Notes: generated by a model not told the origin, from the letters alone. DNA of 56,025 nucleotides from Candidatus Aenigmatarchaeota archaeon (GCA_023137195.1 JAGLPV010000006.1:1-56025), one strand, 5' to 3'; positions 13,855 through 56,025 are shown, counted from the stretch's first letter. A program made the numbers and translations.

Positions 13855-13855
13855 A

Positions 13856-18256: not shown

Positions 18257-18303
18257 ATTAATTTCAATAGCTTTATATTATTTATGTATAAATATGGGTT
18301 AAT

Positions 18304-19555: not shown

Positions 19556-19670
19556 TATCTAAACTTCCTTGCGAAATTATACGCATATATATACAATGAA
19601 AAAAGCAGACGAATTATTGGTTTTTTTGGCGCATAAATTAAGGAGAAATTCATAAAATAGTCCTATGAAA
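19556..19670 (-). repeat. Inverted copies of intergenic modules A and B
   Basis: 19556-19597 is close to the reverse complement of 14496-14535. 19652-19670 (ATAAAATAGTCCTATGAAA) is the reverse complement of the first 19 nt of module B with 2 mismatches. Confidence 0.7.
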
Positions 19671-19741
19671 AATACTATTTTTGAACTGAATTTCTTGCTC
19701 ATGGAGGGGTATAACAATAAAAGAATAAACAAAACAATAAA

Positions 19742-19751
19742 TTATATAAAA
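19742..19751 (+). promoter_or_regulatory. TATA box candidate for the giant gene
   Basis: TTATATAAAA 20-29 nt before ATG 19771, preceded by an A-rich BRE-like stretch. Confidence 0.55.
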
Positions 19752-19770
19752 CTGATAATCTATATTTAAT

Positions 19771-22700
19771 ATGCGAAAAAAATCACAGACGAATCTAAAA
19801 TTTACTACATTTTTATTAACATTTACCGTCATTTTCGCATCATTATTTTTTCTTTCTTCAACCGGAAATTTTTGGACTTGGGGACAGGAAAAAACAGACA
19901 TTATTACAATAAATTCACCCACACCAAACAGTGTTCTTGACTCAAAAACAATTCCAATAAACCTGACTCTTCTAAACACAACATCCGGCTATGTTTACAT
20001 ATCAATTTTTCAAAACCAGGCGATAATAAATTCAACAGCAATTGAGCTTGAAGGAGAAACAGGTAAAAATTATGAATCAAGTATATCTGTCTTTGATGAC
20101 GGAACATATAATGTTGATTTGACAGTATGCAATTCAACAGATAACTGCACCTCTCACACCATAGAAAATATTTCCATAATGACTTCTGGTAATTCTTCTT
20201 TCGAACAGGAAAACACCACAATCCAACTCCCTCAAATATACGATATTATTCCAAATTCGTATTCAATATTCTTAGGAGATATGCTGTCCATCCTGGCAAA
20301 GTTAAGTTACTCCAATCAAACCTCTGTCCAAAACAGCAAAATCACATATGAAGAAAACCAGACGATTCTAGGCACAAATTATACCGACCAGACCGGTTGG
20401 TCTGTACTTTATATAAATACAACTGGCAAAGGGGTTGGAAACCACACCATAAATGTGACTTCAATCTACGGCACATACAATACAACTATTGTGGAGTTTT
20501 TTTCACCAAATAATTCTGATGAAACACAAGACAATGCCACCAATGAAATCGAGGAAAACATTACAATCCAACTCCCTCAAATATACGAAATCATCCCCAA
20601 TTCTTATTCCATTTTTTTAGGAGATATGCTCTCTATCCTAGCAAGATTGGGTTATTCAAACAATACCTCTGTCCAAAACAGCACCCTTACTTTCTGGCAA
20701 AACCAGGAGATAATAGGACAGAATAATACTAATCAAAATGGCTGGTCTACACTCCACATAAATACAACTAACAAAGAGTTTGGAAACCACACAATAAATA
20801 TAACTTCAGTTTACGGAACATACAATACAACCACCATAGAGTTTAAAGAACAGGAAAATACAACCAATACAACTGGTGAAACAGTTGAAAATACAACAAA
20901 ACAAAAAGACAATCAAACTACCCTCAATATCTTTAATTCTACGACAATTGAAGATAATTGGACGGTTAAATTTAATACAACCGGAATTGCAGACCTCTGG
21001 ATATCAGTTGTTGACGGCACAACATGGAGCGACGCTGACGAAACAGAAGATTTGAAATTCATTCAAATAAGATGCGGAAGTCAAACATTGGATTATATAT
21101 GGAGGAACAATTCTGTTTTGGTTCAAAATTATTCATGCACACAAGCAGGTTATGTAATCTCTAAAATATTTACCGCAGGAAAACACAATCTAAAATTCAC
21201 ATTCGGCAACAACACAGCTTATGCCAATTGCACCAGTATAGATAAGTTAACAGATTTACAAAAAGAATATGACCCACAGACCAAAACAATCACAATCACA
21301 AAAAAACCAAAGAAAAAATTACTATCTCTTAAACTAGGAGGGAAAGAAAAAATCGCAGAATTCCAGTTGATTAATAATACAGACCACTGCTTCATCGACT
21401 GCGAGGCAGTAATAAAATTCACAGCATATCAGAACATCCCAATCCCAAAAGACAAGGACAACAAATTCAAGTTCAAAGGAAACCTGAAATCATTTTCATC
21501 TGAAATAGATGGAGCTGATTTCTTTGACAAGAATTACAAAGCAGGAGAATATTACATAACTTTGAAAGGAAAAAAGAATCCTTTTGACAACGTAGACTGG
21601 ATTCCAAGAATATTCGGCATAGACTTTGACGAATGGGCATGGTGGAATTCAACCTTTGACAAGAAGCAGGAAATCCAGATAAACAATACAGACAAGGAAG
21701 TTGCCAATTATTCTTTGCTTATCAATGTCTCGTATGATTCTGACATGCTCTCCAACTTTGCTGACCTACGGTTTGCCGATGCTTCTGAAAACGAAGAATT
21801 GTCTTACTGGATTGAGAACAAATCAGACGGAAGTTATGCAGATGTCTGGGTAAAGATTCCATACACTTTGACGAATACGACGAATACGACAATCTATATG
21901 TATTATGATAATGCAAGTGCAGTTGAAAGTAAAAGCAACATAACTAATGCATTTTTATTTGCAGACGATTTCAACGATAACTCTTACGACACAGGCAAAT
22001 GGGACGAAGTATACTTCTTAGGTTCGGCTTGCGGTTCCATAACAGAAGCAAATGGCAGGCTAAACATAAGCGCTACAAGAAGCGGCACCAACTGTTATCT
22101 CTATTCTATATCAAAAACAAATCTTTCCGGGATTGATACAATCACAACAGGGGATATAGTTGATTCAAGTATATTGGGTTCTGATTATCACGGGGGTGGA
22201 TTACACTATGAAATAAATAATACAGATAATATTTTTATCGGAACATATAAACTTTATAATACTGATGGATTCTATATGAGGAGCTACCATAGTCCCGATA
22301 GTTACCAGCCTTCTGATGTTTCACATAGTTCTGTATCATGGAATGCGACAATCATACACACAAATACATGGATAACAAAATATGATAATACAGTTCACAT
22401 GAATGCTTATACTGAAACTAACCCTCTTTCAGGTGAATTCCCTGCAATCTATACCTCCTCGCCCACAACCGATGGCAACTCCTGGATTGAATATGACAAT
22501 ATAATCAGTCGCGTATATCTTTCAACAACCCCGACATATTCATTTGTAACAGAAGAAGATCAGCCCCCCCACATAGACTTTGTTAATTCGACAACCGCTC
22601 CAGGGACATACAAGCAGACCTATATTGAAGCAAACATAACCGCCTCTGATGATAATATTGACACAATAACTCTTTATCTTTACAACTCAACATCTTTGGT

Positions 22701-25700
22701 GCAAACTGATACTTCATCAACTTCGCCTTTATTTGTAAATTACACAAGTCTGCCTCTTGAGACCTATTATATAAACGCAACAGTAAACGACACTGCAGCA
22801 AATACAAACCAGACCGGGACAAGAACAATATCTCTAAAGGATATCTCTCTTTCTATTAATCTCAACAGCACAACAGTCAATCCAGAAGAAACAATCGAAA
22901 TATCCGGTTATGCAACCTTACAACCCGACGGGACAAATGTCACAAACAACACAATATATATCTGGCAGGACAATTCTTTGATAAATATTATAAATAAACC
23001 AGATTATGTTTCTATTTGGTGGAACACAACTTTCCAGAAAAAGAAAGCAATCCAGATAAATAACACAGATATAGAAGTCGCAAATTATTCTCTTTTACTA
23101 AACATAACTTACGACTCTGACATGAACTCAGACTTCTCAGACATAAGATTCACAAATGTTTCAGAAAATGAAAAACTCAACTATTGGATAGAAAGCAAAG
23201 TCGATAGCTCTTATGCAAACATCTGGGTAAATATACCCTACACTTTGACAAATACAACAAACACGACAATCTATATATATTATGGTAACACTTCTGCCGT
23301 GAGCAGCGAAAGCAATGGCTCTGCAACATTCGATGCATTTGGTTCTGGTGGAGATATAACATCTTATGATAAATATCTTATCCATACTTTTACTGAATCC
23401 AGTACATTTACACCAACTGTAAATATGAATACAGAATACTTAGTCATAGCTGGTGGAGGTGGAGGTGGCACTGCAAATAATGGAAATTCTGGTGGTGGTG
23501 GCGCAGGAGGATATAGAAGTTCAGTTTCTGGGGATTCATCTGGTGGAGGCGCAGCAGCAGAATCACCTCTAGTTCTAACAGCAGACACAGGATATACTGT
23601 AACTATTGGTGCCGGCGGCGCAGAATATACAAACGGAGGCAACTCTGTCTTTGGTAGTATCACTTCCATAGGTGGTGGGAAAGGAGGATATTATAACGCG
23701 GTTGCCGCAGGCAGTGGTGGTTCTGGAGGAGGGGGAGGACAATCTCATGATCTTGGAGCATCTGGAACAGCAAATCAGGGATATGCAGGAGGTCGTTCAA
23801 GTGCAACAGGTGGTATTGGTGCTGGAGCTGGTGGTGGCGCAGGAGCAGTTGGAGGCGCTTCATATGGCACTGATGGTCGTGAAGGCGGTCATGGTGGTAT
23901 AGGAGTAGCAAGTACTATAACAGGAACATCTATCTATAGAGCAGGCGGTGGAGGCGGCTCTACTCATGGTCAAGGAACAGCAGGTATTCCTTCAGGTGGA
24001 AATGGCGGTGGTGGTAATGGTAAGTATGCATCATCTGTAAACGCTACAAACGGCACTATAAATACAGGTGGCGGCGGCGGCGGCGGCGGCGAAAATAATC
24101 CATCAGGAATTGGTGGTTCTGGTATCGTAATAGTGCGATATGTATCTAGAACTAATATAAGTACAGAACCAACCACATCATTCAGTTCAGAACAATCCCT
24201 AACCCGAACAGACTCAAACGGGCAATACAATTACACTTTCACAGCATCTCAATACGCTGGTGCTTACACAGTCAAAGTAAACCTGACAGACTCAAACTCA
24301 ATCTACGGAGAGAACGAAACAACATTAAACATAAAAATCAATCTTACAAGTCCGACAGCAACATCAACCACATCCGGCACAGTCTATACAAACCCAACGG
24401 AGACAATCAACCTGACTGTAACTATCCCAACCTCAAACATTAACTGCCCAACATTGAACCTCTCCAATGTCTGGGCAAACATAACAAAACCAACAGGTTC
24501 TGAACTAGTCCAGTTATCCGGCTCTGTGCAGGGAAACACTTGGGACGGAACCTTCACAAATACTGATGAAACAGGAACATACAATATAACATACTATGCC
24601 AATCTGACTGATGGTTTCAGCCACGTAACCACGACAACAACCTCATTCTATGTCAAGAACATCTCAGTCACGCTAAATCTTGATAATACAATAGTAAACC
24701 CATCTCAGAACGTGGAAGTTTCAGGAAAGGCAACATTGCAGCCAGACAATACAAACATTACAAACAACACAATCTCAATATGGCAGGACAACACCCTAAA
24801 ATTAGGAGGATCTTGGTGGAACACAACCTTCCAGAAAAAGAAAGCAATCCAGATAAACAATACAGACAACAATATAGCAAACTATTCCTTACTCCTAAAC
24901 ATTACATACGATTCAGACATGAACCCAGACTTCTCAGACATAAGATTCACAAACAGTTCAGATAATGAAGAATTAAGTTACTGGATAGAAAGCAAATCAG
25001 ACAGTTCTTATGCAGATGTCTGGGTAAAAATACCATATAATTTGACAAATACCACAAACACGACAATCTATATGTACTATGATAATACATCTACTGTTTC
25101 GAGCCAAAGCAATGGAAACAATGCATTTGAATATTTTGAAGATGGTGAAGATGCAAGTGATTGGTCTTTCACTCTTGGAAGCGGAACAGTAGAGTCTTCA
25201 ACAGATCAAGCCTTTGAAGGCAGCAAATCTATTAAAATATCCGCTGTTGGTGGAGCAGATACAGCTACAACCTATTTTGATTCTGTAACCAGAGATGCGC
25301 TTACTCATGCTTTTGGATACAGGGTCATGATCTCAAGTACATCTATGACAACACGACAATATTTACTTAATCCTAACAGTGAAGATGAAGTAAGTGTTTT
25401 CACAGATTGGGTTGCAACTGATCCAAATGGATGGAGTCATAAAAATAATTCTGGCAGTGTTGTAGCATTTAGTCCTGTAATAGATGTTGTAGCAAATGAA
25501 TGGATGAAATTAAATTATGAAAATATCACTTCAACAGAATGTGATTTTTATATAGATGATTATTTCAGACATGATACTTGTTCTAATGGAGCTCAAGACC
25601 AATTCCATAGTTTTGGTGTTACTTTAGATGAAACACAAACAGTATATATTGATGCATTAATAATTAGAAAATACATAATCCCTCCAACATCCTCTTTCGG

Positions 25701-28700
25701 CACAGAACAAAACCTTACCCAGACCGACTCAAATGCACAATACAACTACACCTTCACAGCATCTCAATACGCAGGAAACTACACAGTCAAGGTCAACCTC
25801 ACAGATTCAAACTCAATCTACGGAGAGAACGAAACAACCCTGAACGTAAAAATCAACCTCTCAAGTCCGACAGCAACTTCAACCACATCAGGAACAGTCT
25901 ATGCAAACCCGACAGAAACAATCAACCTGACAGTAAATATCCCAACATCAAACATAAACTATCCAACATTGAACCTCTCCAATGTCTGGGCAAACATAAC
26001 AAAACCGACAGGTTCTGAATTAGTCCAGTTATCCGGTTCTGTCCAAGGAAACACATGGGATGGAACATTCACAAACACAGATGAAACCGGAACTTACAAC
26101 ATAACATACTACGCAAACCTGACCGACGGTTTCAGCTATGTGACCACAACAACAACTTCTTTTTATGTCAAGAATGTTTCAGTTTCAATCAATCTAAACA
26201 ATCCAATCTCAAACCCATCTGAAAGTGTCGAAGTGTCCGGATATGCAACCTTGCAGCCAGATGATACAAACATAACAAACAACACAATTCATATTTGGCA
26301 GGATGACTCATATGCAATAAGCTGGTGGAACACAACCTTTGAGAAAAAGAAAGAGATCCAGATCAACAACACAGACAACGAAGTTGCCAATTACTCATTA
26401 CTCCTCAACATAACTTATGACTCTGATATGAACTCAGATTTCTCTGACATAAGATTCACAAACAGTTCCGAAGATGAAGAACTATCTTACTGGATCGAGT
26501 CCAAAGTAGATTCTTCTTATGCAGATGTCTGGGTAAAGATTCCATACACATTGATCAACACAACAAACACGACAATCTATATGTATTATGGAAACACATC
26601 GATTGTGAGTAGTGAAAGCGATTATTTTAATGCTTTTCTATTAAGTGATAATTTTGATGATAATTCAATAGATACATCATTATGGACATCTGAAAGTGGA
26701 ACTCCGACAGAAAGTAGTGGTATTTTAACAGTAGATGGAACCGATGGCACAAGAGATGCTTTATGTAGTGTCGTCAATATTTCACGACCATTTATTATCG
26801 AAGTAGATGGTAAATCAACTGCAAACGATAATTGGAATCTCTATTTAGCTTGGACTCCTGATTCAGCAACATCTAATACTCACATGACTTTACGGTATCA
26901 TGGAGGTGTAAATTATTGGGCAGATGATGATGGTGCTGGAAATTATCATGCGTGGGCTGTATCTGATGATGATAATAAGTGGGTAAATATGACTATGATT
27001 GGTAGGGAAAACATGACCTCATATTTTAAGAAAGTGTCTTCAACAGCAACACAGATTAAAGATTATAACAATGTTGGTTCACACACAGAACATTTAGTCT
27101 GTTTGATGCAATGGGGAGAAGGTGCAGGCACAGGTCTTGGATATTTTGATAATATTATAGTTAGACGATATTTAGAGACAACTCCAACATCCTCATTTGG
27201 TACAGAACAACTCTACACTCAAACAGACTCAAACGGGCAATACAACTACACCTTCACAGCATCCCAATACGCCGGAAACTACACAGTCAAGGTCAACCTC
27301 ACAGACTCAAATTCAATCTACGGAGAGAACGAAACAATCCTGAATGTAAAAATTAATCTTACAAGCCCAACTGCAACATCAACTACCTCAGGCACAGTCT
27401 ACGCAAATCCAAGTGAAACAATAAACCTGACAGTAAATATCCCGACCTCAAACATCAACTCCCCGACACTTAACCTTTCTAATGTCTGGGCAAACATAAC
27501 CAAACCCACAGGTTCTGAATTAGTCCAGTTGTCCGGATCCGAAGAAGGAAACCAATGGGACGGAACCTTTACAAATACACAAGATAGTGGAACCTACAAC
27601 ATAACCTATTATGCAAACCTGACCGACGGTTTCACTCATATAACCACAACCACAACATCTTTCTATGTCAAGAATATCTCAGTCACGCTAAACCTTGATA
27701 ACACAATAGTAAACCCATCCCAGAACGTAGAAGTTTCAGGAAAAGCTACATTGCAACCCGACAATACCAATATCACAAACAACACAATCTATATCTATCA
27801 GGATGATGTATCCGTAATAACCTGGTGGAACTCAACCTTTGAAAGAAAGAAAGAAATCCAGATAAACAACACAGACATAGAAGTTGCAAATTACTCATTG
27901 CTTCTAAACATCACATACGATTCAGATATGAACTCTGACTTCTCTGACTTAAGATTCACAAACAGTTCAGAAGACAGATTATTAAACTACTGGATCGAAT
28001 CTAAAGTAGACAGTTCTTACGCCGATGTCTGGGTAAAGATTCCATACAATCTGACCAACACCACAAACACGACGATCTATATGTATTATAATAATAATAC
28101 GGTCATTGAAAATGTAATTAGTTATACTAATGCCTTTTATTATTCTGATGATTTTGAAGATAATGACTATACATCTAATCCTGTATGGTCTGTTGAAGAC
28201 GGTACATGGGTTATAGATACAAAAACATTAAAAGGAGGTAGTGCAGGTTCAAGTTATGGGCATATTTACTCTGATATGCCTTCATCAATTAATTTAGTGG
28301 ATGTAGAATTTAAATTTAAATTTTCCGATCTAGCTGCAGCAGGAGAAAGCATTTCTTTTTATCTGCAAACTGATTCAAATGTAGGTTATGTATTGTATAT
28401 CCAACAGAGTGGGGGGTATGATTTATATATTGGTGATTTTTCATCAAATATTATTGATGTTTCATGGTCTCCGGATACGAATTGGCATACTGCAAGGATT
28501 ACAAGACGAAAAGACTCAAATCTGACAATATATTTAGATGACACAGTTAAAGGTTCAGTTGTGGATATGACAATGAATTCATTTAATAGGATAAGAATAA
28601 GGAGAGGTAATTATGCAAATTTCTACATGTATGCAGACAATATATCAATTAATCATTTTATTATAGCTCCAACTTATTCATTCGGATCAGAACTGTTAAA

Positions 28701-31700
28701 GACCGACTCAAACGGGCAATACAACTACACCTTCACATCTTCATCAACTCTTGGTCAACATACAATCAAGATAAATCTTACAAATCCAAACTCAATCAAA
28801 GGCGAGAACGAGACAACAATAGACGTACGAAACCTTACATATTCACAGTTCAACCTATCCGATTCAGACAGCCAGTTGAACAACATATTAAACCCGGCAG
28901 AATCCTACAACGCAACAGTAAAGATACGTGAATACAACGGCTCGGATTACTTCGATGTAACTTCCGGGACATTCACAACAACAATAGCAGGAACAACCTA
29001 TTCTCTAAACCATATAGGAAGTTCAGTCTGGCACACAAATGAGACCCTAACAGCATTGTCATCTTTAGGCCAGCAATCCTTCCTTGCAAACATAACTGGA
29101 ACTTCAGGAAACGGCATAACAGACTCAATACAAGACACAAACTATACTTACAATGTCAAGAACATCTCAGTCTCAATAAATCTCAACAGCACAATAGTTA
29201 GTCCGGAAGACACAATAGAAGTTTCAGGATATGCAACATTACAACCCGACGCAACAAACGTGACGAACAATAATATCTTGATCTGGCAGGACAACATAAA
29301 AATAGCAGGAGCAAGCACCTGGTGGAACGCAACATTCCAAAAAAAAAAAAAGATAAAGATAAACAACACAGACAATGAAATCGCAAATTATTCATTATTA
29401 TTAAACATATCTTATGACTCTGACATGAACCCAGACTTCTCTGATCTAAGATTTGCAAATGGTTCAGATAATGAGGAATTATCTTACTGGATCGAAAGCA
29501 AATCAGACAGTTCTTACGCAGATGTTTGGGTAAAGATCCCCTACACTCTTTCAAACACAACAAATACGACTATTTATATGTACTACAAGAATTCAACGGT
29601 TGTTACAAGTAGAAGCAATATTACTACAGCAGGTATATTTGGCGATGATTTTGAAGATCATGTAACTGACTGGGAAAATGAGAACAGTTGGACAACATCC
29701 AATAATGGTGGATATATTGATTTGAAGAGTACTGATTGTTATGCTGGCACGAAATGTGGATTAATTGAAGTAGCACCATCTAATGATCCACACGTAGGGT
29801 TTGAGCCATTACAATTATCATCCGGTAGACTACAATTCATGATGCGTGAGAGTTTCGCAGGTTCAGTTGGCAGAATATCATTCCAAACTTTTGATGGTGC
29901 AACAAAATATATATATTCTTTTTTCGGAACTTCGAGTGCAAAGGATTTGAAATATTATGTGTCATCATCTATAGATACAGGCACAGATTATACACCTGAT
30001 GTATGGAAGAAAGTTATATATGAATGGGATAGTTCTACTTTTGATTGGTATTATGACGGCATAAAAATAGTTGATGATGGATTATATCAGGATAGTGGTT
30101 CGTATACAAATGGTATTGACGAAATAAGATTCGTTGGGATGGCAGTCAATGACCAAGCAGAAATCGATAATGTATTCTATACAGCATCTCTATCAACAAC
30201 CCCAACCTCATCATTCGGCGCAGAACAATCATTGATACAAACCGACTCAAACGGACAATACAATTACACCTACACAGCATCTCAATACGCCGGAAACCAC
30301 ACAGTCAAGGTCAACCTCACAGACTCAAACTCAATCTATGGTGAAAACGAAACAACCCTAAACGTAAAAATCAACCTGACAGACCAAACAGCAACATCAA
30401 CTTCAACAGGAAATTCAAACGCAAACCCATCAGACACAATCAATCTGACAGTAAACATCCCAACATCAAACATCAACTACCCGACCCTAAACATCTCCAA
30501 TGTCTGGGCAAACATAACAAAACCAACCGGCTCAGAAATAGTCCAGTTATCCGGCTCAGTACAGGGAAATACATGGGACGGAACATTCGCAAACACAAAT
30601 GAAAAAGGAACATATAACATAACCTATTATGCAAACCTCTCAGACGGTTTCAGCCACGTAACCACAACCACAACATCATTCTATGTAAAGAACATCTCAG
30701 TCACACTAAACCTTGACAACACAATAATAAACCAATCCCAGAACGTAGAAGTTTCAGGATATGCAACCTTACAACCAGACAATACAAATATCACAAACAA
30801 CTCTATCTCAATCTGGCAGGATAATTCTTTGTTAAATGCATGGTGGAACACAACTTTCCAAAAAAAGAAAGAGATCCAAATAAATAACACAGACAACGAG
30901 GTCGCAAACTATTCATTATTATTGAACATAACCTACGACTCAGACATGAACCCGGACTTCTCTGATCTAAGATTCACAAACAGTTCAGAAAATGAAGAAC
31001 TAAACTATTGGATTGAAAGCAAATCAGACAGTTCTTATGCTAATGTCTGGGTAAAGATACCTTATGAATTAACCAACACAACAATCTATATGTATTATAA
31101 GAATAATACAGCAGTTGAAAGTGAAAGTAATATAAAAACCGCTTTTATCTTAGGTGATTTTGAAACCGGCACATCAACAATAGATACAGATATATGGACA
31201 CAAGGTACAAATCCCGTAACAGCAACAGCGAATGGAGATTGGACAACATTAACAACAGGTGCAACTGACCCATCTTTTATAAAGTCAAATATTTGGTTTG
31301 ACCGTGCTGGTTATATGATTCATTTAGATTGGGAAAATAATAATATTAATCCATATGTAGCGGTTGGTATAATGGATGGCGCGATGGATGGTGCTACAAA
31401 TACAATATATCAAATGCTCGGCGCACCAAATTATATAAAATTAAGAACAGAAAAAGATAACGTTCAAACAGACCCAGCCCAAAATATTTTATCTAATCAT
31501 AATATAGTTCATAATATGGTTTTATATTTCAACAGTACAGAAGCAACATGGGCTGATAATTCAAGTGATGGTAATTTTGCAGGTTCATCAACAACAAATA
31601 TTCCCACCATAGATTTAGAATTTTGGATTGCCGGATATATTGGTGGCAGTCATCCTTTTAGTATAGAAGTAAGGAATTTGTATATTACGAAATGGTTACA

Positions 31701-46700: not shown

Positions 46701-49700
46701 TAATGTAGAGATTCCTGCATCTTTTTCATGGGAAAAAAGCACAAATGAGACAACTCTAAACGGTGTTTCAAACCAGAATGCAATGGACACAAGCCTTTCT
46801 GTCACAAACACAGGAAACAATCCAATAGACTTTACCTTTGCGCTTGTAGGGAACGTAACATCTTCAGGCATTATGGAATTGGCAGAAACTTCTCAAACAA
46901 TCCAGCCTCTCGACTCTTATCAAATCCAACTCAATCACACAGCCAATTATGAAAACGCCTATTATGAAGGAACACTCCAGGTAAAAAACACAACCTATTC
47001 AGAAAATATAAAAATCAAGTACCACTCCTACATAGCAGAGTTAAACATCATAAACATCACCCCTAACTACAACATAATCTCCCCGGGCAACATCAACATA
47101 ACAACACAATTCACATTTGGTTCCAATAATATTACAGAGAACACAACTTACACAATAAAAATAAACAACACAAACTGCACCGCCATACAAAACACAACAC
47201 AAGGAGGATATATTGCCCACACCTGCGCAACGCCATCAGTACCGGACGGCAGATACCACGACATAGAAGCTATAGCAGACTACACATGGGAAACAGGCAT
47301 CATAAGAGTCACTCAGACAAATACAAGCGCAGTATATTACAAAGATATAACTGCGCCAACAATAACCCTTGCAAACACATCCGTATCAGATATAGAAATA
47401 ACTACAAACATAACCATAAACTTCACAGCAACAGACAATCTTGCAGTAGATACAAGACAAATAACTCTTTACTATCCAAACTCAACACAATACCAGTCAA
47501 AAACATTAACCTCCGGTTCAACAACAGTGGCGATTCCAACAACAATAGGCACATACACAATAAACTACACAGTAAACGACACAACAGGAAACACAAACTC
47601 CACAGCAACTACTTTCGAAGCATACGAATGGAAAAACTTTTCCGGCTATTTGCTGGATTTAGATGGAGTTGTAGTGCCGACATCTTTTGAGATATCAGAC
47701 AACGGAACAATTCTTCATTCCTTTTCCACAAACACAAGTGGCTATTACAACGCAACAGTAAAAAGAAAGACTTACGATTTAAAGATGAGTTTCCTTGATG
47801 CAAATGTAACAATGGAAGATGTAGATTTCTCCGGTACACCTTCTGATTTCATAGACATCGATACCCCCCTTCTGGGAGATTTTGGTTTCGGGGAAACATT
47901 TACCGTAATAAAAGGATTTGCAATAAATACAAGCATTTCTAATTCCGGTTCCATAACATACACATATACCTCGGAGGATGTCGGAGCCCTTTCAACAGAC
48001 TATCTTGAAATTTACAGGTGCACCAACTGGAATTATGGTGATGTAAGTTGCAACGGCATTCTGGCAGAGATAACAGACACAAAGAACAAGGCGCAAAAAA
48101 AGCTCAATGCTTCCTTTTCTTCATTGACAGCGATTGTTTTAGTCCACAAACCACCCGCAGAACAACCAGAAATGACAATCCCATCCACAAATATGGTTGT
48201 TTATGCAAACCATGGAGAGCAGAAGAACGCAACGCTTACAATTCAGTCCACAGGATCAGTCCAGCTTTCAAACATTATGTTTACCTGTTCAAGCGGTAAC
48301 GTATGCACTCTCTTTTCATTAGCAGGAGACACAATAGTCGGTCTGGATGCAGGCGCCTCTTACGATGCGCCACTGACAATGAACATACCTCAATACACCG
48401 CCCCCGGAGCATACACAGGGCAACTGGTTGTTTCCTCCAACCAGCAGTCAGTATATGCCCAGGAAAAGACAATTGATGTAACCGTTAATGTAGTGGAAAA
48501 CAGCAATTTTTCAATAGACAACACACAAAACAACATCTCGGCAGGAGCAAACGCGCAAGGACAACTTTCAACAATAACAATAACCAACATAGCAAACGCG
48601 CAAAAGACATATTCATTAACCCAAAACTCAACAATTATAAACCCATCCACAAGTTCCTTAATCCTGGCAAAAAACACAAGCGATTCTATATCCTTAAATT
48701 ACACCGCTCCAAACACAACAGGACTCTACACTGCAACACTAAACATAAGCACAAACAGTATATATAATATATTGAACTTCACGATAAACATAACATTCAT
48801 GATAAACACCATCACAATAAACAAGACAACCAACATTTCAGCAGGAGATGTTTTATTGATAAACACATCCATTTACCCGGACACCACCCCCGCATACAGC
48901 GTATTGGTAGACAATCAAACATGCCGGATAATCAATTACACCCAGTACACCATAACATGCATTGCTCCAAATATAACAGCCGCAATGTCGCACAACCTGA
49001 CAGTATCTACAACAGGATTTAACGTCACAGCATATAAGACAAGCGATATTTCCTATATAGACACACTCCCACCTCTCGTAGAGCAAAACATAACTTCCGC
49101 ATTTATAAACTCAACCACAAACATAAACGTGACACTCACAGATCAAAACAATATAACCGGAATAAATGTCTCGATATCTTATCCAAATGGAACATTATTA
49201 AACACAACACAACTACAAATCATCAACAACACAGGAGCAAACTTTAATTTCACAGGAGACCGGAAAGGAGATTACATATTCCTATACAACGCATGCGACA
49301 ATTTAACAAATTGCGGAAACACAAGCTATTACTTTGAAGTATACGAAAACATAAATTTCACGACTAACATCACCACAGACGTTGCTATATATGCAAATTT
49401 CTACAGACCGGAAAAAGAATTTACATCTGGTTCATTGTTAAAATCAATAACAATTGATTCTGACGGCGAATACAACACATCAACCCAGATACACGACAGG
49501 GCATACGATTTAGAAGTATATACTTCCTCAAGCAACAACATCAAAATGGAAAATGTCAACATGACAAGATACAACAACAACTTCATCGAACAAATGACAA
49601 CAGTTTCAGGAAGCCAGATGGGAGCCATACCATACAGCAATTATTCCTCCGTAACACCAATCTCAGGCATCGCAGTAAAAACAAATATAACCACTTCAAG

Positions 49701-52503: not shown

Positions 52504-52523
52504 AAAACTATATTTAATAAACT

Positions 52524-55500
52524 ATGTTATTTGACAAAAAAAAAGAAAAAGATATGACAGCAGGAACAGACATGAACAGCATTGAAAAATACATCTCCTC
52601 TGTAGTTGTTGACATAAAAGCAGACATAGACCGTCTGAAAGCGCACAGTGAGGCAGAAAAAGAGATACGCTCTTCTGTGCAGGAGCGATTTTCCCACGTA
52701 AATGAAACAATGGGTCAGTTGAGGGAAATGCTAATTGAATCAGAGAAAAAATACCAGACTCTCGAGGAAAAATCAACAAAATCCATAGATTTGATGAATG
52801 AATTAGAGCCTGAAAAAATCAATTCAATGATTCAGGCGCAGGATTTTAAGGTGCAAAAGCAGGATGCAAAATCACTGGCAAATGCTTCAATGATAAAAAA
52901 TTTAATCGATGAATTAAAATCCCTTAAATCATCTTTTTCCCGGTTCAAGGGAGTTGAAAAAATAATCGAGACAGCGGATGATATAAAAAGAGAAGTCAGC
53001 ACATTCAATAAAATAAAATCAAACACAGAGCGGCAGGCAGAAAAAGTAGGAAATATCTTTGTAGAAGTAGAGAGAAATTTCAATGACTTCAAGAAATACC
53101 AGCAAAAGCAAAAAGATCTGGAAAAGGATTTCAGGGAAGTGTTAAAGGATTTTGATGTCATAAAAATTGACAATGAAAAGAACAAGAACATTTCGGGATC
53201 ATTGGAAGATATTCAAAAACGCAGTAAATTATATGAGGAGAAGATAGATACTTTTGTTTTTTCATTGGAAAAAATAAAAGAAGAAGGTAAAAAGTCAAAC
53301 CAAATCCTTCTGGAACAAATAGGGGCTATTGAAGAAATAAAGGAAAAATATATAAAAAAAGTTGATGAAGAAGACAATTTTGTGAATGAGAAAATCAAGG
53401 AATTTGAAAAGGCAAAGGAAAGATACGAATCAAAATTCAATGCTAAATTATTTTTATTAGAGGATATATTAGAGCAAAGAGCCAAGAAAATGGATGCGTT
53501 GGATAAAAATATCAGCATAAATGTTTCAAAGGAAACGCAGTTGTTGAGTAAGATAAAATCACTGGAAAAGGCAAACAAAGGCATTCAAAAATCAATGGAT
53601 GAAAAACTAAAAAAGACAATCAAAGGGGAACAAAATCGGTTAAATACACAATTGAACAGGGAAGTTTCAAAAATAATAAAAGAGATAGAGGAAAAGACAG
53701 CCAAAGCCGCCAAGAATCAGGATGTGGGTATAAGCGCGCAATTTAAAGAAGAATTCACAGACATGAAAAACAAGATTGAAGAAGTCCATGATAATTTAAC
53801 TACAAAGTCAGAGGAAATAAGAGAATTAGACAAAAGAATAGGAATTGATTCTTTAAGTGAAGCCCGGCTGACAGATAAGATAAAACATCTGGAATCACTG
53901 GATGCTAAATTCCTATCAAAAGAAGACATTCAAAAAGCCAACATTGAGCTGCAAAAAGCAATAGATGAAAAAATAAACAAAACCATCGAAGAAAAACAAG
54001 CCCTATTAAATGCACAAATAAATCAGGACATTTCAGCAAAAGTAGACAATATAAGAAAAGAAATAAAAGAAAATACCTGCTCATTTATTTCAGTCCAGGA
54101 CAAAATAACAGGACTCCAAAGCACAATAAACAATAAAACACAGGAGATAAATAAACTAGACAAAAAAATAGGCTCTTTTGAACTGCTCCAAAACAAGATT
54201 ACCCATATTGAAAACACCATAGACAACAAGTTCAGCAAGATGAACGAATTGGACAAAGACGTGATTAAAAATGCCGACAGGCAAACAAAATTAATGGACA
54301 AAATAATATCATTCGAAGATTCAAAAAATAAGTTTGTTTCAAAAAAAGATCTTCGGAAGTTCAATGTAGATATAATAAAAGAGATAGAGGAAAAGACAGC
54401 CAAAGCCGCCAAGAGCCACAAATTATATCTAAGCACACAATTTAAAGAAGAATTCACAGGCATGGAAAACAAGATTGAAGAATTCCAGGATAAGTTAATC
54501 ACCAAGTCAGAGGAAATAAGAGAATTAAACAAAAGAATAGGGATTAATTCTTCAAAGGAAGCCCATCTGACAGACAAGATAAAACAGATGGAAGCAGAAG
54601 AGACCACATTCCTCTCAAAAGAAGACATCCGTAAAGCCAACATCGAGATGCAAAAGGCATTGAATGAAAAATTGAACAAAATCATGCAGGATGCAGGGAT
54701 CAACACCGATGCCAAGTTAGAGGAATTAAGCAAAAACATAGTTTCAAACTCCGGGAAAGAGAAGGACTTGATGAATGAATTAAAGACACTAGAAGTAGTG
54801 GCAGGTAATTTCATCCAGAGACAGGACCTACAGAAATCCAACTCAGATATACAAAAAACACTGAATGAAAAGATAACCAAACTCATGCAGGATGCAGGAA
54901 TCAACACAGACGCCAAATTAAGCAAAGTGAACAAAAAGCTAAAAGCAGTAAATCTTGTCAAAAACAAAATACTCAATATACAGGACACATTGAACAGGAG
55001 AGCAGAACGGCTGGATGAATTAAACAAGGACATTGAAATAAATTCTTCAAAAGAAGCAATATTGATGAAAAGAATCAATTCATTAGAATCAGCAAACAAG
55101 GAGTTGCAAAAAACAATGGATGAAAAAATAAACAAAACCATCGAAGAAGAACATGCTAAGTTAAATTCACAGTTAAGCAGTGAAGTTTCAAAAATAAATA
55201 AAATCAAAAAAGACATAAAAGAAAATACAAACTCTTTTATTTTCACCAAGGATAAAGTAGAAGAGCTTCAAAACACCATAAACAGCAAAACAGGAGAATT
55301 CAGCAAATTAGACAAAAAACTGAAATTATTTGACTCAGCAATAGAAGAAAAGATTTCAAAAATAGATGACACATTAAAGGACAGAACAGAGAAAATAGAC
55401 CTTTTGAACAAAGGAGTTGATATAAATGCAATGGCGGAGGCACAACTAACAGACAAGCTAAAACAAATAGAAGCAGAAGAAACCCACTTCCTCTCAAAAG

Positions 55501-56025
55501 AAGACATCCGTAAAGCCAACATCAATATGCAAAAAGCATTGAATGAAAAACTAACTAAAATCATGCAGGACGCAGGAATCAACGTAGATTCAAAATTCAA
55601 TGAATTAAACAAAAATATAGTCTTAAACTCCCGAAAAGAGAAGAAATTAATGAATGAATTAAAGACGCTTGAAGAGACCGCAGCCAATTTTATCGACAAA
55701 GAAGACCTCAGGAAATCCAACTTAGACACACAAAAAGCATTAAATGAAAAACTAACCAAACTCATGCAGGATTCAGGAATCAACACCGATGCCAAATTCA
55801 GCAAAGTAGACAAAAAACTAAAATCCATGGACTCTGTTAAAAACAAAATTTCAGATATCCAAAGCACATTGAATGATAGAGCAAAAAGAATGGACGAATT
55901 AAACAAAGACATAGGTCTAAATGCTTCAAAAGAAACAAAACTAATGAACAGAATCCAATCCCTTGAAGCAGAGAATCAGAAGCTGCAAAAGATAAACCCT
56001 GAGTTTCAAAAAACAATGGACGAAA
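52524..56025 (+). CDS. Long repetitive coiled-coil protein, 3'-truncated by the window edge (at least 1,167 codons)
   Basis: ATG 52524 is 20 nt after the giant gene stop. It reads MLFDKKKEKDMTAG...DIDRLKAHSEAEKEIR...ERFSHVNETMGQLREML, and the same frame gives ...KLQKINPEFQKTMDE at the window end. It is absent from the ORF track, consistent with having no stop. K/E/I/L-rich heptads, no TM seen. Confidence 0.88.
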   Translation, partial: MLFDKKKEKDMTAGTDMNSIEKYISSVVVDIKADIDRLKAHSEAEKEIRSSVQERFSHVNETMGQLREMLIESEKKYQTLEEKSTKSIDLMNELEPEKINSMIQAQDFKVQKQDAKSLANASMIKNLIDELKSLKSSFSRFKGVEKIIETADDIKREVSTFNKIKSNTERQAEKVGNIFVEVERNFNDFKKYQQKQKDLEKDFREVLKDFDVIKIDNEKNKNISGSLEDIQKRSKLYEEKIDTFVFSLEKIKEEGKKSNQILLEQIGAIEEIKEKYIKKVDEEDNFVNEKIKEFEKAKERYESKFNAKLFLLEDILEQRAKKMDALDKNISINVSKETQLLSKIKSLEKANKGIQKSMDEKLKKTIKGEQNRLNTQLNREVSKIIKEIEEKTAKAAKNQDVGISAQFKEEFTDMKNKIEEVHDNLTTKSEEIRELDKRIGIDSLSEARLTDKIKHLESLDAKFLSKEDIQKANIELQKAIDEKINKTIEEKQALLNAQINQDISAKVDNIRKEIKENTCSFISVQDKITGLQSTINNKTQEINKLDKKIGSFELLQNKITHIENTIDNKFSKMNELDKDVIKNADRQTKLMDKIISFEDSKNKFVSKKDLRKFNVDIIKEIEEKTAKAAKSHKLYLSTQFKEEFTGMENKIEEFQDKLITKSEEIRELNKRIGINSSKEAHLTDKIKQMEAEETTFLSKEDIRKANIEMQKALNEKLNKIMQDAGINTDAKLEELSKNIVSNSGKEKDLMNELKTLEVVAGNFIQRQDLQKSNSDIQKTLNEKITKLMQDAGINTDAKLSKVNKKLKAVNLVKNKILNIQDTLNRRAERLDELNKDIEINSSKEAILMKRINSLESANKELQKTMDEKINKTIEEEHAKLNSQLSSEVSKINKIKKDIKENTNSFIFTKDKVEELQNTINSKTGEFSKLDKKLKLFDSAIEEKISKIDDTLKDRTEKIDLLNKGVDINAMAEAQLTDKLKQIEAEETHFLSKEDIRKANINMQKALNEKLTKIMQDAGINVDSKFNELNKNIVLNSRKEKKLMNELKTLEETAANFIDKEDLRKSNLDTQKALNEKLTKLMQDSGINTDAKFSKVDKKLKSMDSVKNKISDIQSTLNDRAKRMDELNKDIGLNASKETKLMNRIQSLEAENQKLQKINPEFQKTMDE
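53673..56025 (+). repeat. In-frame internal repeats of the coiled-coil gene
   Basis: ATAATAAAAGAGATAGAGGAAAAGACAGCCAAAGCCGCCAAGA at 53673 and 54372 (699 nt apart). FLSKEDI.KANI at 53910, 54609 and 55488 (699 and 879 nt). MQD(A/S)GIN(T/V)D occurs four times. Confidence 0.85.

What the first reader, a model, noticed from the sequence alone, without database searches (positions are those of the whole stretch)
19771..56025. Candidate new trans-envelope machine: 10,910-aa multi-ligand surface protein fused to a HerA/VirB4-like ATPase, with a coupled coiled-coil partner
Seen: one ORF with a signal-like N-terminus, ~10,300 aa of beta-rich repeats, a hydrophobic helix at aa ~10,340, and an ATPase with intact Walker A (GSTGGGKT), VIVFDP, Walker B (LIVYDEVH) and the RKWG...ISQ motif. 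A >1,167-aa coiled-coil gene follows 20 nt later. Established: FtsK-HerA superfamily ATPases (HerA, VirB4, TrwB, CedB) are ring motors that move DNA or power secretion, and are normally separate from adhesins. Inference: this is a host-attachment organelle of a DPANN-like symbiont in which a ring of ATPases carries several ~1.2-MDa stalks. It would couple host binding to ATP-driven uptake, secretion or mechanical work. I know of no characterised system with this architecture, but cannot exclude unannotated homologues.
Basis: partly seen in the sequence, partly recalled or inferred. Interest (0 to 1): 0.95.

Follow-up and report, generated by a model that had tools for sequence, protein, structure and literature searches.

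The report
Giant archaeal adhesin fused to ATPase
A 10,910-residue surface protein of a small, symbiont-type archaeon ends in a membrane anchor and an internal ATP-driven motor domain; this design is real and widespread but was already described as 'SPEARE' proteins, whose function is still unknown.

Summary
ORF 19771-52503 (+) encodes 10,910 aa with only two hydrophobic segments (aa 9-32 and 10,331-10,358). A coiled-coil gene starts 20 nt downstream.

The fusion is not a mis-join. Contigs from other samples bridge the helix/ATPase junction. The ATPase module recurs behind a hydrophobic helix in hundreds of DPANN proteins, in open frames of up to 12,145 aa.

The claim of an undescribed architecture fails. 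Hamm et al. 2019 (SPEARE proteins) and a 2023 Frontiers paper describe signal peptide + giant adhesin + TM helix + cytoplasmic ATPase + coiled coil, and note relatives in Woese-, Aenigm- and Micrarchaeota.

- By sequence the ATPase is closer to HerA than to VirB4/TraG.
- The downstream coiled-coil protein is a real family: it lies downstream in 52 of 80 public loci and 16 of 20 relatives' loci.
- A clade of about 780-aa forms lacks this partner.

Verdict: new, very large member of a known but functionally unsolved kind.

The parts
19771..19866 (+). Signal-like N-terminus (aa 1-32: basic start, hydrophobic core aa 9-32)
   Evidence: This is one of only two hydrophobic segments in the protein.
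19867..21687 (+). N-terminal beta-rich, N-x-S/T-rich region with an internal ~115-aa duplication. No Pfam match.
   Evidence: slice 19867-21690: 0 families. (20207-20486 against 20552-20831, 79% DNA identity).
21688..41790 (+). Eleven units of about 500 aa. Each holds Ig-like stretches, one DUF2341 and a divergent ~200-aa insert.
   Evidence: DUF2341, 8+3 stretches. (motif positions aa 645-7,037, spacing mostly 499-507 aa). (units at most 85% identical in DNA). (inserts alike only at their ends). (inserts have no Pfam match).
23368..24210 (+). Glycine-rich domain (Gly_rich_2) inside unit 2, aa ~1,200-1,480
   Evidence: PF21722, E 1.1e-14, aa 1,210-1,457.
31768..33690 (+). Kelch-like propeller region (aa ~4,000-4,640)
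   Evidence: Kelch_6, E 7e-10. Repeated 'YIY..GG...F.RYSIS.N.W' is visible.
41788..49911 (+). Array of Ig/CARDB-like (NPCBM_assoc, TRAP_beta-like) domains, aa ~7,340-10,047
49912..49980 (+). Ser/Gly-rich linker (aa ~10,048-10,070) between the variable stalk and the conserved module
   Evidence: Read directly.
50038..50760 (+). Conserved membrane-proximal extracellular module (two Ig-like domains), shared with the ~780-aa family members
   Evidence: alignment A1 spans it; Y168 is nearly invariant.
50761..50844 (+). Single transmembrane helix, aa 10,331-10,358
   Evidence: It is conserved in 131 of 144 testable homologues. An independent contig, X3 record 22, bridges it (50620-51579).
50863..51765 (+). 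Cytoplasmic HerA-clade P-loop ATPase. Walker A is at 51001-51024, Walker B at 51379-51402 and RKWG..ISQ from 51472.
   Evidence: The catalytic motifs are invariant in 45 aligned sequences.
51766..52503 (+). Cytoplasmic tail: a conserved helical segment (..DVFD.E.ELK.A..K...G.F..VDIY.E..) followed by a K/E-rich, low-complexity, coiled-coil-like end and the stop codon
   Evidence: An in-frame 6-nt insertion polymorphism lies at 52290.
52524..56025 (+). Co-oriented coiled-coil partner gene. It has a conserved ~230-aa N-terminal core (aa ~35-250) followed by window-specific repeats, and it runs off the contig. It probably ends in contig C3.
   Evidence: The 27 inserted letters of the X4 joint match the C3 continuation.
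19122..19770 (+). AT-rich 650-nt upstream intergenic region with TATA-like boxes. The nearest is about 20-30 nt before the ATG.
   Evidence: read directly. No archaeal promoter tool was available.

Best explanation
This is a very large member of the SPEARE-type family of DPANN archaea. The protein is exported by a Sec-type signal peptide. It has a heavily glycosylatable ectodomain of about 1.13 MDa, built from 11 DUF2341 units with divergent inserts, a Kelch-like propeller and Ig/CARDB-like arrays. One transmembrane helix anchors it. About 50 residues after that helix a cytoplasmic HerA-clade P-loop ATPase begins, followed by a helical, K/E-rich tail. A coiled-coil gene from a conserved DPANN-specific family follows 20 nt later and is probably co-transcribed.

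Shown here: the anatomy, the continuity of the gene, conservation of the helix + ATPase module, intact catalytic motifs under purifying selection, and the conserved partner gene.

Inferred:
- The ATPase forms a ring under the membrane, as solved HerA/FtsK relatives do, which would bundle several stalks.
- The ectodomain binds the host surface.
- The ring uses ATP to move a polymer (DNA or unfolded protein) or to do mechanical work at the contact site.
- The partner acts as a cytoplasmic adaptor or scaffold.

I put about 0.85 on family identity and topology. I put only about 0.3 on polymer translocation as the actual job.
For: Anatomy and family size:
- Anatomy.
- ATPase alone against 1.84 billion representatives: 1,094 hits at E<=1e-3 and 350 at E<=1e-30. 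The best 150 are 253-6,253 aa long, and 51 of those 150 are >=2,000 aa.
- 131 of 144 testable hits have a hydrophobic helix within 75 aa upstream of the ATPase.
- 21 of 31 genomes of the same order, the window's own genome G000 included, have a match. None has internal stops, and the open frames reach 12,145, 9,591, 8,146 and 7,378 aa.
- 533 of 599 pattern matches in species-representative genomes are confirmed relatives. All 80 kept records carry archaeal titles, mostly DPANN lineages; ten are titled 'uncultured Methanosarcinales archaeon'.

Link to SPEARE:
- The same topology is described in print.
- I get the same spurious ResIII hit that gave SPEARE its 'RE' (PF04851, E 8.3e-7).
- Giant proteins of named nanohaloarchaea share the module. 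Ca. Nanosalina sp. VS9-1 has a 3,306-aa protein at 49% identity, E 1e-105. Another Ca. Nanosalina protein of 4,079 aa is 51% identical.
- Hamm 2019 reports relatives in Woese-, Aenigm-, Micrarchaeota and Altiarchaeales, matching my record titles.

HerA clade:
- Best solved relatives are HerA chains. Single sequence: 8wiv E 2.7e-9 and 4d2i 4.4e-7, against FtsK 0.085, DotL 0.59 and VirB4 0.91. Profile: 4d2i E 1.1e-10.
- Walker A, Walker B, GGSG.G, ER..REFRKWG.G and SQ are invariant in 45 sequences.

Continuity and selection:
- X1 unitig 44000-53702 has no differences.
- X3 record 22 (50620-51579) bridges the helix and Walker A.
- X2 record 14 (50761-52871) runs from the helix into the partner gene.
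- 15 of 15 listed X4 variants between 51153 and 51444 fall on third codon positions (my arithmetic).

Partner:
- jackhmmer converges on a family that hits only genes beside these ATPase genes, plus one paralogue in the own genome. It does not hit the other long ORFs of contig C4 (5,339, 2,032, 1,876 and 1,450 aa), which I judged coiled-coil-like from their first residues only.
- It lies downstream in 52 of 80 loci, 51 on the same strand and 29 within 400 nt.
- It is present in 22 of 26 loci with ORFs >=2,000 aa and at least 1.5 kb of downstream sequence, and in 16 of 18 loci with complete 851-1,999-aa ORFs.
- It is present in 16 of 20 relatives' loci by position and composition; 11 of those 16 were hit by a single phmmer search and all 16 by jackhmmer.
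- It is the only broadly shared neighbour: 51 of 80 loci, against 14 of 80 for the next family.
Against: - No direct alignment with the type SPEARE proteins (NAR1_1133, AOV94740.1, SVXNc_0300) was possible.
- No laminin-G or protease Pfam hit was found in this ectodomain, although Hamm 2019 says all SPEARE ectodomains have a laminin-G domain.
- In the cultivated nanohaloarchaea the downstream gene is said to be a second VirB4/TraG-type ATPase, not a coiled-coil protein.
- Partner absences: 22 of 80 loci have downstream room but no partner, 10 of 11 complete forms <=850 aa with room lack it, and 4 of 20 relatives' loci lack it.
- One TM helix per subunit would make a very narrow six-helix channel, so a translocation pore is not obvious.
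- Oligomeric state, partner binding and substrate are all untested.
- Hamm 2019 found the cytoplasmic/TM part and the ectodomain in different gel size fractions. The two parts may therefore be separated after synthesis, which would weaken any mechanical coupling.
Confidence: 0.75

Rival explanations
1. Type IV secretion-like injector (the reading of PMC10266531). The ATPase is a VirB4/TraG-type secretion motor, and the giant protein acts as a 'straw' that delivers effectors into the host.
For: - This reading was published for homologous-looking proteins.
- There are weak P-loop-region hits to TrwB_AAD_bind (E 1.1e-5) and to the TraD, TraC and VirB4 NCBIfam models.
- The membrane-anchored ATPase topology resembles coupling proteins (recalled).
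Against: - Every T4SS model scores far below its cut-off: 15-29 bits against cut-offs of 366-648.
- Solved VirB4 and DotL are much weaker matches than HerA: E 0.91 and 0.59 against 2.7e-9.
- No CagE_TrbE_VirB domain was found anywhere in the 84.8%-complete genome.
- No other T4SS-like family recurs beside the gene in the 80 loci.
- A beta-rich Ig/DUF2341 chain has no evident lumen (inference).
Confidence: 0.12
2. DNA-uptake or DNA-processing device (the reading of Hamm 2019, modified). The cytoplasmic domain handles host DNA entering at the contact site. It would act as a HerA/FtsK-like DNA pump rather than as a restriction enzyme.
For: - The nearest solved and curated relatives are DNA motors: HerA 4d2i, and the weak top NCBIfam hits 'DNA-translocating ATPase CedD' and HerA.
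- DPANN archaea generally lack nucleotide synthesis (recalled).
- Hamm 2019 proposed DNA degradation by this domain.
Against: - No nuclease domain was found. The ResIII hit covers only the P-loop core (aa 401-548 of the last 910).
- The CedD hit is 30 bits against a cut-off of 600.
- No DNA-binding domain and no NurA-like neighbour was seen.
- No channel-forming partner has been identified.
Confidence: 0.2
3. Anchoring or regulatory module with no transport role. The ATPase and coiled coils cluster the adhesins, tie them to a cytoplasmic scaffold and change ectodomain state (inside-out control). Alternatively they help assemble or turn over the giant protein.
For: - There is a single TM helix and no pore component.
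- The conserved partner and the tail are coiled-coil-like.
- Cytoplasmic tails vary between subfamilies (TPR tails in the ~1,300-aa forms), as adaptor regions do.
Against: - Strict conservation of all catalytic motifs and synonymous-only variation argue for real ATP turnover.
- FtsK-HerA ATPases are known as translocases (recalled from Iyer et al. 2004, which is not held).
- The ~780-aa clade keeps the ATPase with almost no ectodomain and no partner.
Confidence: 0.2
4. Assembly artefact: the stalk and the ATPase are joined wrongly, or the repeats are mis-assembled into one ORF.
For: - This is a metagenome-assembled contig.
- The gene contains eleven ~1.5-kb repeat units.
- The contig ends inside the repeats of the next gene.
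Against: - Repeat units are at most 85% identical in DNA.
- A 16.7-kb unitig covers 44000-53702 without differences, and contigs from other samples bridge the junction.
- Hundreds of homologues have the same fusion.
- The exact number of DUF2341 units upstream of 44000 was not checked against reads.
Confidence: 0.02

Closest known systems
SPEARE proteins of Nanohaloarchaeota (Ca. Nanohaloarchaeum antarcticus NAR1_1133, 5,998 aa; Ca. Nanopetramus SG9, up to 8,553 aa) and the giant surface proteins SVXNc_0300 / BNXNv_0298 (9,409 / 8,880 aa)
   Same: - Signal peptide, mostly extracytoplasmic adhesin, one TM helix near the C-terminus and a conserved cytoplasmic P-loop domain (mis-hit as a type III restriction helicase), ending in a coiled coil.
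- Named nanohaloarchaeal giants share the ATPase at 49-51% identity.
- Synthesis of one SPEARE protein was shown by proteomics in Hamm 2019 (passage read).
   Different: - Longer than any of those in print that I read (10,910 aa).
- The ectodomain is built on DUF2341 units rather than ~75 Ig-like domains or protease/toxin-like regions.
- No laminin-G Pfam hit.
- The downstream gene is a coiled-coil protein, not a second VirB4-like ATPase.
- The runs that hold it are labelled cold-seep rather than hypersaline.
- A direct alignment to the type proteins was not possible.
HerA (archaeal double-strand-break repair helicase; PDB 4d2i) and HerA-like ATPases (YjgR/DUF853, anti-phage HerA)
   Same: RecA-like core with Walker A, hhhhDE.H Walker B and the (E)R..RE.RK.G.G....SQ motif. 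These are the best sequence matches among solved structures and Pfam DUF87.
   Different: - The HAS-barrel N-domain is replaced by a TM helix and a giant ectodomain.
- HerA equivalog models score 24-30 bits against cut-offs of 800-970.
- No NurA-type neighbour.
- The genome has its own ordinary HerA-like genes on C2 and C8.
Membrane-anchored FtsK-HerA superfamily motors: T4SS coupling proteins (TrwB/VirD4/TraD), VirB4, FtsK/SpoIIIE, Ced system ATPases
   Same: N-terminal membrane anchor directly followed by a cytoplasmic P-loop motor. Weak P-loop hits.
   Different: - All hits are below the family cut-offs.
- There is one TM helix instead of two or more.
- There is no all-alpha or gamma domain and no T4SS or Ced neighbours.
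- None of these motors carries a megadalton adhesin (recalled).
DPANN coiled-coil proteins (CCPs) of Hamm et al., 'The parasitic lifestyle of an archaeal symbiont' (bioRxiv 10.1101/2023.02.24.529834, section 8 read)
   Same: - They are DPANN cluster-2-specific coiled-coil proteins.
- Their 'Locus 1' includes GatE and a 'P-loop NTP hydrolase'.
- In this genome a partner paralogue (C20:39348) lies beside a GatB/GatE gene.
   Different: - Their loci were selected for type IV pilus genes nearby. Here no T2SSE ATPase lies on C54, C20, C55 or C3.
- Whether the two families are the same could not be tested, because I had no CCP sequences and supplements are closed.
Giant prokaryotic adhesins without a motor (halomucin, large repetitive RTX/Bap-type adhesins)
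   Same: Size, repetitive beta-rich modules and a predicted surface location (recalled; halomucin is mentioned).
   Different: They lack the TM helix + ATPase module.

Membership tests
SPEARE-type giant surface proteins | N-terminal secretion signal with most of the length extracytoplasmic | tested here: met
   hydrophobic aa 9-32, then 10,298 aa with no further hydrophobic segment, and 525 N-x-S/T sequons.
SPEARE-type giant surface proteins | Single TM helix near the C-terminus with a cytoplasmic C-terminal region | tested here: met
   (aa 10,331-10,358). The cytoplasmic part is 552 aa with pI 9.14, against pI 4.38 for the ectodomain.
SPEARE-type giant surface proteins | Conserved intracellular P-loop domain (reported as type III restriction helicase-like, later as VirB4/TraG-like) | tested here: met
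   DUF87 E 1.2e-10, ResIII E 8.3e-7, TrwB_AAD_bind E 1.1e-5, all on the same stretch.
SPEARE-type giant surface proteins | Sequence homology to giant proteins of named Nanohaloarchaeota | tested here: met
   Ca. Nanosalina sp. VS9-1, 3,306 aa, 49% identity, E 1e-105; Ca. Nanosalina sp., 4,079 aa, 51%. The type proteins NAR1_1133 and SVXNc_0300 were not available for comparison.
SPEARE-type giant surface proteins | At least one laminin-G domain plus other adhesion domains in the ectodomain (Hamm 2019) | tested here: inconclusive
   - No Laminin_G Pfam hit.
- Adhesion-type DUF2341, Kelch and NPCBM_assoc are present.
- The inserts start 'F.D...W' and end 'D.V.VRKY', which I recall as LamG-like.
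- Homologues carry PF13385.
SPEARE-type giant surface proteins | Serine protease domain (original definition, disputed in 2023) | tested here: not met
   No peptidase family appears. PMC10266531 argues that the type proteins lack it too.
HerA helicase (repair type) | HAS-barrel N-domain, a score above the equivalog cut-off, and a NurA partner | tested here: not met
   29 bits against a cut-off of 800. A TM helix sits where the barrel would be. No NurA is among the neighbours.
HerA clade of the FtsK-HerA superfamily (broad sense) | Walker A, Walker B hhhhDE.H and the R..RE.RK.G....SQ motif, with best matches to HerA | tested here: met
   No reference phylogeny was made.
VirB4 / TraG-VirD4 type IV secretion ATPases | CagE_TrbE_VirB or T4SS-DNA_transf domains, family-level scores and T4SS neighbours | tested here: not met
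   (15-29 bits against cut-offs of 366-648). (VirB4 E 0.91). (no PF03135 in the genome). (no recurring T4SS gene).
FtsK/SpoIIIE | FtsK_SpoIIIE motor domain above the cut-off, several TM helices and a gamma domain | tested here: not met
   PF01580 at 18 bits against a cut-off of 24. One TM helix.
Hexameric ring motor (how it works) | Homo-oligomeric ring under the membrane | not testable with these tools
This is inferred only from solved relatives.
Conserved coiled-coil partner family | Homologous ~230-aa core encoded next to the ATPase gene | tested here: met
   (R67 and P96 invariant; G64, V91, E130, G143, K149 and F179 at >=90%). Physical binding was not tested.

The most novel reading that the evidence does not exclude
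The helix + HerA-clade ATPase module, its conserved coiled-coil partner and further large surface proteins encoded nearby could form a DPANN-wide class of envelope machine. This class would be distinct from T4SS, T7SS, Ced and type IV filaments. A ring motor covalently tethered to megadalton adhesins would couple host capture to ATP-driven import of host polymers (most plausibly DNA). That would explain how genome-reduced archaeal symbionts feed across two envelopes.
Probability: 0.2. Interest if true: 0.85.

Novelty: new member of a known kind. Interest (0 to 1): 0.45.

Why it matters
How DPANN archaea take material from their hosts is an open question, and SPEARE-type proteins are the leading candidates. 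No function has been shown for them.

This locus extends the family:
- It is not a nanohaloarchaeal oddity. The module occurs in at least 533 loci of species-representative genomes and in 21 of 31 genomes of this order (the window's own included).
- Open frames can exceed 10,000 aa.
- By sequence the motor is HerA-like rather than VirB4-like.
- It usually comes with a dedicated coiled-coil gene.

These points narrow the experiments needed: ATPase and partner biochemistry, and cryo-ET at contact sites in the cultivable nanohaloarchaeal systems. If the motor proves to be a translocase, it would be a new route of inter-cell transfer in archaea. As a sequence observation alone, it is a large new example of something already in print.

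Tried and rejected
Tools that were closed or gave nothing:
- Structure route: structure prediction on alignment A1 was switched off, so no fold search was possible. Complex prediction for ATPase tail + partner was not available.
- I therefore could not check whether P0281 (2,116 aa, on a 9,424-bp hydrothermal-sediment contig) is the RLG14629.1 that Hamm 2019 lists as a SPEARE match. I think it probably is, but this is unverified.
- The Atlas could not read the window's partner. A stored homologue, P0271, gave only 'hypothetical protein' clusters of archaea and no usable fold (pLDDT 0.52, TM <= 0.33).
- Iyer et al. 2004 is not held. What I say of it is recalled.

Literature searches:
- 'DUF87' + 'DPANN' found 0 papers.
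- 'HerA' + 'DPANN' + 'surface protein' found 3 irrelevant papers.
- One search returned noise.
- Makarova 2014 (passages) does not treat this family.
- Supplements (Hamm 2019 Fig. S17 and Table S3; the CCP tables) are closed and may already list relatives or the partner.
- I did not find the partner/ATPase gene pairing stated in the texts I read. Fig. 5 of the 2023 preprint may show it.

Other negative results:
- Tandem Repeats Finder found nothing, because the unit of ~1.5 kb exceeds its period limit. blastn self-comparison was used instead.
- Partner Pfam scans gave only sub-threshold coiled-coil noise.
- No RNA holder was listed among the sequencing runs. Only contigs, not reads, could be laid, so depth and the region upstream of 44000 were not examined.

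Ideas I dropped:
- I first thought the ~780-aa forms were the ancestral core. The FastTree topology (103 rows, midpoint root, no outgroup, supports not inspected for these clades) instead nests 9 of the 12 complete forms <=850 aa in one derived-looking clade, so I dropped that idea.
- C20's 2,767+-aa ORF and the ATPase fragment at the start of C55 might be one gene, but no end overlap was found.

Full report
**1. The observation**

The window is an entire 56,025-bp contig (C54) of a 1.42-Mb, 57-contig, 84.8%-complete genome with about 35% G+C. One search lists one ORF at 19771-52503 (+) of 10,910 aa and a second at 52524-56024 (+) of 1,167 aa that runs off the contig. The gap between them is 20 nt.

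A Kyte-Doolittle scan finds only two hydrophobic 19-mers above 1.8 in the giant protein: aa 9-32 and aa 10,331-10,358.
- GSTGGGKT at aa 10,411
- VIVFDP at 10,435
- LIVYDEVH at 10,537
- RKWG at 10,568
- LISQ at 10,576

The part between the two hydrophobic segments is rich in T, N and S (35% together), acidic (pI 4.38) and carries 525 N-x-S/T sequons. The 552 residues after the helix are basic (pI 9.14). That fits a type I topology with the ATPase inside the cell. Calculated mass is 1,205 kDa.

The neighbours are archaeal housekeeping genes: S4e, L5, L14, S8e, diphthamide synthase, a class II tRNA synthetase and GH57.

**2. Anatomy**

- Pfam finds DUF2341 in 8 + 3 stretches, a Gly_rich_2 domain, NPCBM_assoc/TRAP_beta-like Ig folds and, at the end, DUF87 (HerA central domain) at E 1.2e-10. 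Weaker P-loop hits go to ResIII, TrwB_AAD_bind, HerA_C and FtsK_SpoIIIE.
- Motif mapping shows 11 units spaced mostly 499-507 aa apart between aa 645 and 7,037.
- Each DUF2341 is followed by an insert of about 200 aa. These inserts resemble one another only at their ends. None of the nine ~200-aa inserts or the 351-aa first insert matches Pfam at E<=0.01. A tenth slice holds a Kelch motif.
- The distal third is Ig/CARDB-like.
- A Ser/Gly linker (aa ~10,048-10,070) precedes a membrane-proximal module of about 240 aa. This module is conserved in much shorter relatives.
- In DNA the units are at most 85% identical, so short-read assembly through them is plausible.

**3. Is the fusion real?**

Laid contigs:
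- In run X1, which may be the source, a 16.7-kb unitig covers 44000-53702 with no differences.
- In other samples of the same study, X3 record 22 (50620-51579) bridges the last ectodomain, the helix and Walker A.
- X2 record 14 (50761-52871) runs from the helix through the stop codon into the partner gene.
- X3 record 23 and X4 record 30 also cross the gene boundary.
- No stop or frameshift was reported. The only indel is an in-frame 6-nt insertion at 52290.
- All 15 listed X4 variants between 51153 and 51444 lie on third codon positions (my arithmetic).

Homologues:
- The ATPase alone (aa 10,360-10,680) finds 1,094 cluster representatives at E<=1e-3 and 350 at E<=1e-30. The best 150 are 253-6,253 aa long and 51 of them are >=2,000 aa.
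- In 131 of the 144 hits with enough upstream sequence, a hydrophobic 19-mer lies within 75 aa before the ATPase.
- 21 of 31 genomes of the same order, the window's own included, have a match, none with internal stops. Open frames reach 12,145, 9,591, 8,146 and 7,378 aa.
- In species-representative genomes, 533 of 599 pattern matches are confirmed relatives. All 80 kept records carry archaeal titles, mostly Woese-, Pace-, Nano-, Nanohalo-, Aenigmat-, Micr- or Altiarchaeota. Some are plain 'archaeon' and ten are 'uncultured Methanosarcinales archaeon'.
- 32 of those 80 loci show ORFs >=2,000 aa, and 22 of the 32 are cut by the 10-kb flank or the contig end.

A mis-join is excluded for practical purposes. 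The unit count upstream of 44000 was not checked against reads.

**4. It is already in print**

- Hamm et al. 2019 (PMC6642349, passages read) describe 'SPEARE' proteins of Nanohaloarchaeota of up to 8,553 aa. They are mostly extracytoplasmic, with a TM domain towards the C-terminus. [quoted passage not shown]
- That paper reports similar sequences in Woese-, Aenigm-, Micrarchaeota and Altiarchaeales, and proteomic proof that one SPEARE protein is made.
- PMC10266531 (section 11 read) re-analysed these proteins together with SVXNc_0300 (9,409 aa) and BNXNv_0298 (8,880 aa). It lists Sec signal, about 75 Ig-like domains, a TM domain, a cytoplasmic 'VirB4/TraG-like ATPase' and a terminal coiled coil. 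It argues that no nuclease or protease domain is present and proposes effector secretion.
- My Pfam scan reproduces the ResIII hit (E 8.3e-7). Giant proteins of named nanohaloarchaea (Ca. Nanosalina sp. VS9-1, 3,306 aa; Ca. Nanosalina sp., 4,079 aa) share the module at 49-51% identity.

I therefore file the window's protein as a SPEARE-type protein. Another paper notes 'SPEARE-like' small genes in marine-sediment relatives (PMC9563170, passage).

**5. What kind of ATPase**

- Against all solved chains the best single-sequence matches are HerA proteins: 8wiv E 2.7e-9, 8xau 6.5e-8 and 4d2i 4.4e-7. FtsK scores 0.085, DotL 0.59 and VirB4 0.91.
- With a 45-sequence profile, Sulfolobus HerA 4d2i leads at E 1.1e-10. 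The only T4SS chain listed is DotL at 0.008.
- NCBIfam gives only far sub-threshold hits: CedD 30 bits against 600, HerA 29 against 800, TraD 29 against 366.
- No CagE_TrbE_VirB domain was found anywhere in the genome.
- Walker A, Walker B, GGSG.G, ER..REFRKWG.G and SQ are invariant in alignment A1.

The module is therefore a distinct HerA-clade family. A TM helix takes the place of the HAS barrel. A reference phylogeny was not made.

**6. The partner**

The first ~350 aa of the downstream protein align with the proteins encoded after the ATPase gene in relatives. jackhmmer over all ORFs of 100 loci plus the own genome converges on one family.

How specific the family is:
- It does not pick up the other long ORFs of contig C4 (5,339, 2,032, 1,876 and 1,450 aa). 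I judged these coiled-coil-like only from their first residues.
- Alignment A2 has a conserved core: ERFSR.SEQIGELR, an invariant Arg and Pro, FKG, and HADKVE.IF.
- Pfam, NCBIfam and the Atlas know it only as 'hypothetical protein'.

Where the family occurs:

| Set examined | Loci with partner |
|---|---|
| All public loci | 52 of 80 downstream (51 same strand, 29 within 400 nt) |
| ORF >=2,000 aa with >=1.5 kb downstream | 22 of 26 |
| Complete ORF 851-1,999 aa with room | 16 of 18 |
| Complete ORF <=850 aa with room | 1 of 11 |
| Relatives' loci | 16 of 20 |

It is the only widely shared neighbour: 51 of 80 loci, against 14 of 80 for the next family, another large anchored surface protein.

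In the window the partner has grown a repetitive extension, which breaks the assembly. Contig C3 starts with the last 25 nt of C54 and holds a 98%-identical 295-nt overlap, followed by about 74 more codons and a stop. An X4 contig carries the matching junction letters.

A preprint (10.1101/2023.02.24.529834, section 8 read) describes DPANN-specific coiled-coil proteins in loci with type IV pilus genes, GatE and a 'P-loop NTP hydrolase'. In this genome a partner paralogue on C20 lies beside a GatB/GatE gene and two large secreted proteins. The two families may be the same. I could not test this.

**7. Family structure**

A FastTree of 103 ATPase cores was built (midpoint root, no outgroup, supports not inspected).
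- The giant, partner-linked forms are spread over most of the tree.
- The ~1,300-aa forms with cytoplasmic TPR tails form one clade and have the partner.
- 9 of the 12 complete forms <=850 aa form one clade without the partner.
- The window groups with forms of >=2,469-4,183 aa.

**8. How it most likely works**

Shown:
- Export signal, giant glycosylatable adhesin-type ectodomain and one helix.
- An intact, conserved HerA-type ATPase inside the cell.
- An operon-like partner. The 20-nt gap leaves no room for a promoter, and TATA-like boxes lie only upstream of 19771.

Inferred from solved relatives:
- The ATPase forms a hexameric ring against the membrane, so six stalks would be bundled.
- ATP hydrolysis moves a polymer through the ring or drives a conformational change.
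- The tail and the partner form a cytoplasmic coiled-coil adaptor.

My odds, all conditional on the family assignment (about 0.85): DNA handling about 0.2, T4SS-like secretion about 0.12, a non-transport anchoring or regulatory role about 0.2, and other or unknown for the rest.

Against a simple pore: each subunit has only one helix, and no channel protein recurs nearby. Hamm's gel data also hint that the ectodomain and the motor may be separated after synthesis.

**9. Verdict**

The finding is real and striking, but it is not a new architecture. It is a new and very large member of the SPEARE kind. At 10,910 aa it is longer than the 9,409-aa protein called the largest in cultivated archaea. 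It is not the longest open frame of its own family, which reaches 12,145 aa.

The HerA-clade assignment, the breadth of the family, the conserved partner gene and the partner-less short clade are modest additions. They may be partly anticipated in supplements I could not open.

Noticed in passing
own genome G000: C20:39348-53892 (L123) and C55:3-344 (L124): A second system may be split by the assembly.
- A 654-aa paralogue of the partner lies beside a divergent GatB/GatE gene.
- It is followed by secreted proteins of 1,261 aa and 2,767+ aa, neither with a Pfam match. The second runs off the contig.
- Contig C55 begins with the last 114 aa of a paralogous ATPase tail.
- No end overlap links C20 and C55.
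   Followed up: partly
own genome G000: contig C4 (ORFs from 2792, 18781, 24849, 32729) and C1 (5,679 aa), C25 (1,684 aa): There are several more very long ORFs. On C4 four ORFs (5,339, 2,032, 1,876 and 1,450 aa) look K/E-rich and coiled-coil-like in their first residues. They are not members of the partner family. C1 and C25 hold giant ORFs with similar N-termini.
   Followed up: no
L065, L087, L095 (about 12.6-16 kb in each locus); C-termini of P0165, P0239, P0181: In the ~1,300-aa TPR-type loci the partner gene is flanked by small proteins that share a '...HVN..KNDF..W...' motif. The same motif forms the C-terminal domain of the ~780-aa forms. This recurring cytoplasmic module of the system is not named by the precomputed Pfam lists. 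It is absent from the window's protein.
   Followed up: no
G013:C8 (L026) and L100: Two helix + ATPase fusion genes stand in tandem (12,145-aa open frame + 1,393 aa; 781 aa + 1,527 aa). A single partner gene follows the second.
   Followed up: partly
L018, L020, L022-L024 (relatives of the same order): After the partner gene comes a conserved ~1,960-2,010-aa secreted protein with a K-rich C-terminal end. This suggests a three-gene unit in that family. No equivalent follows the partner if C3 continues C54.
   Followed up: no
window 52290: Two other samples (X3, X4) carry in-frame 6-nt insertions (GAAACA and GAAAAA) in the K/E-rich tail of the giant protein.
   Followed up: no
window 344-2185 (+): A 613-aa ORF joins an N-terminal nucleotidyl transferase domain to a class I/II aminotransferase domain.
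   Followed up: no
window 5006-7351 (+): A 781-aa ORF with a GTG start has the terminal SEC-C motif (E 1.4e-7) as its only Pfam match.
   Followed up: no
window 8736-18687: Ribosomal protein genes (S4e, L5, L14, S8e) are scattered among unrelated genes (a tRNA synthetase, GH57, a Na/Pi cotransporter, diphthamide synthase) rather than standing in one cluster.
   Followed up: no
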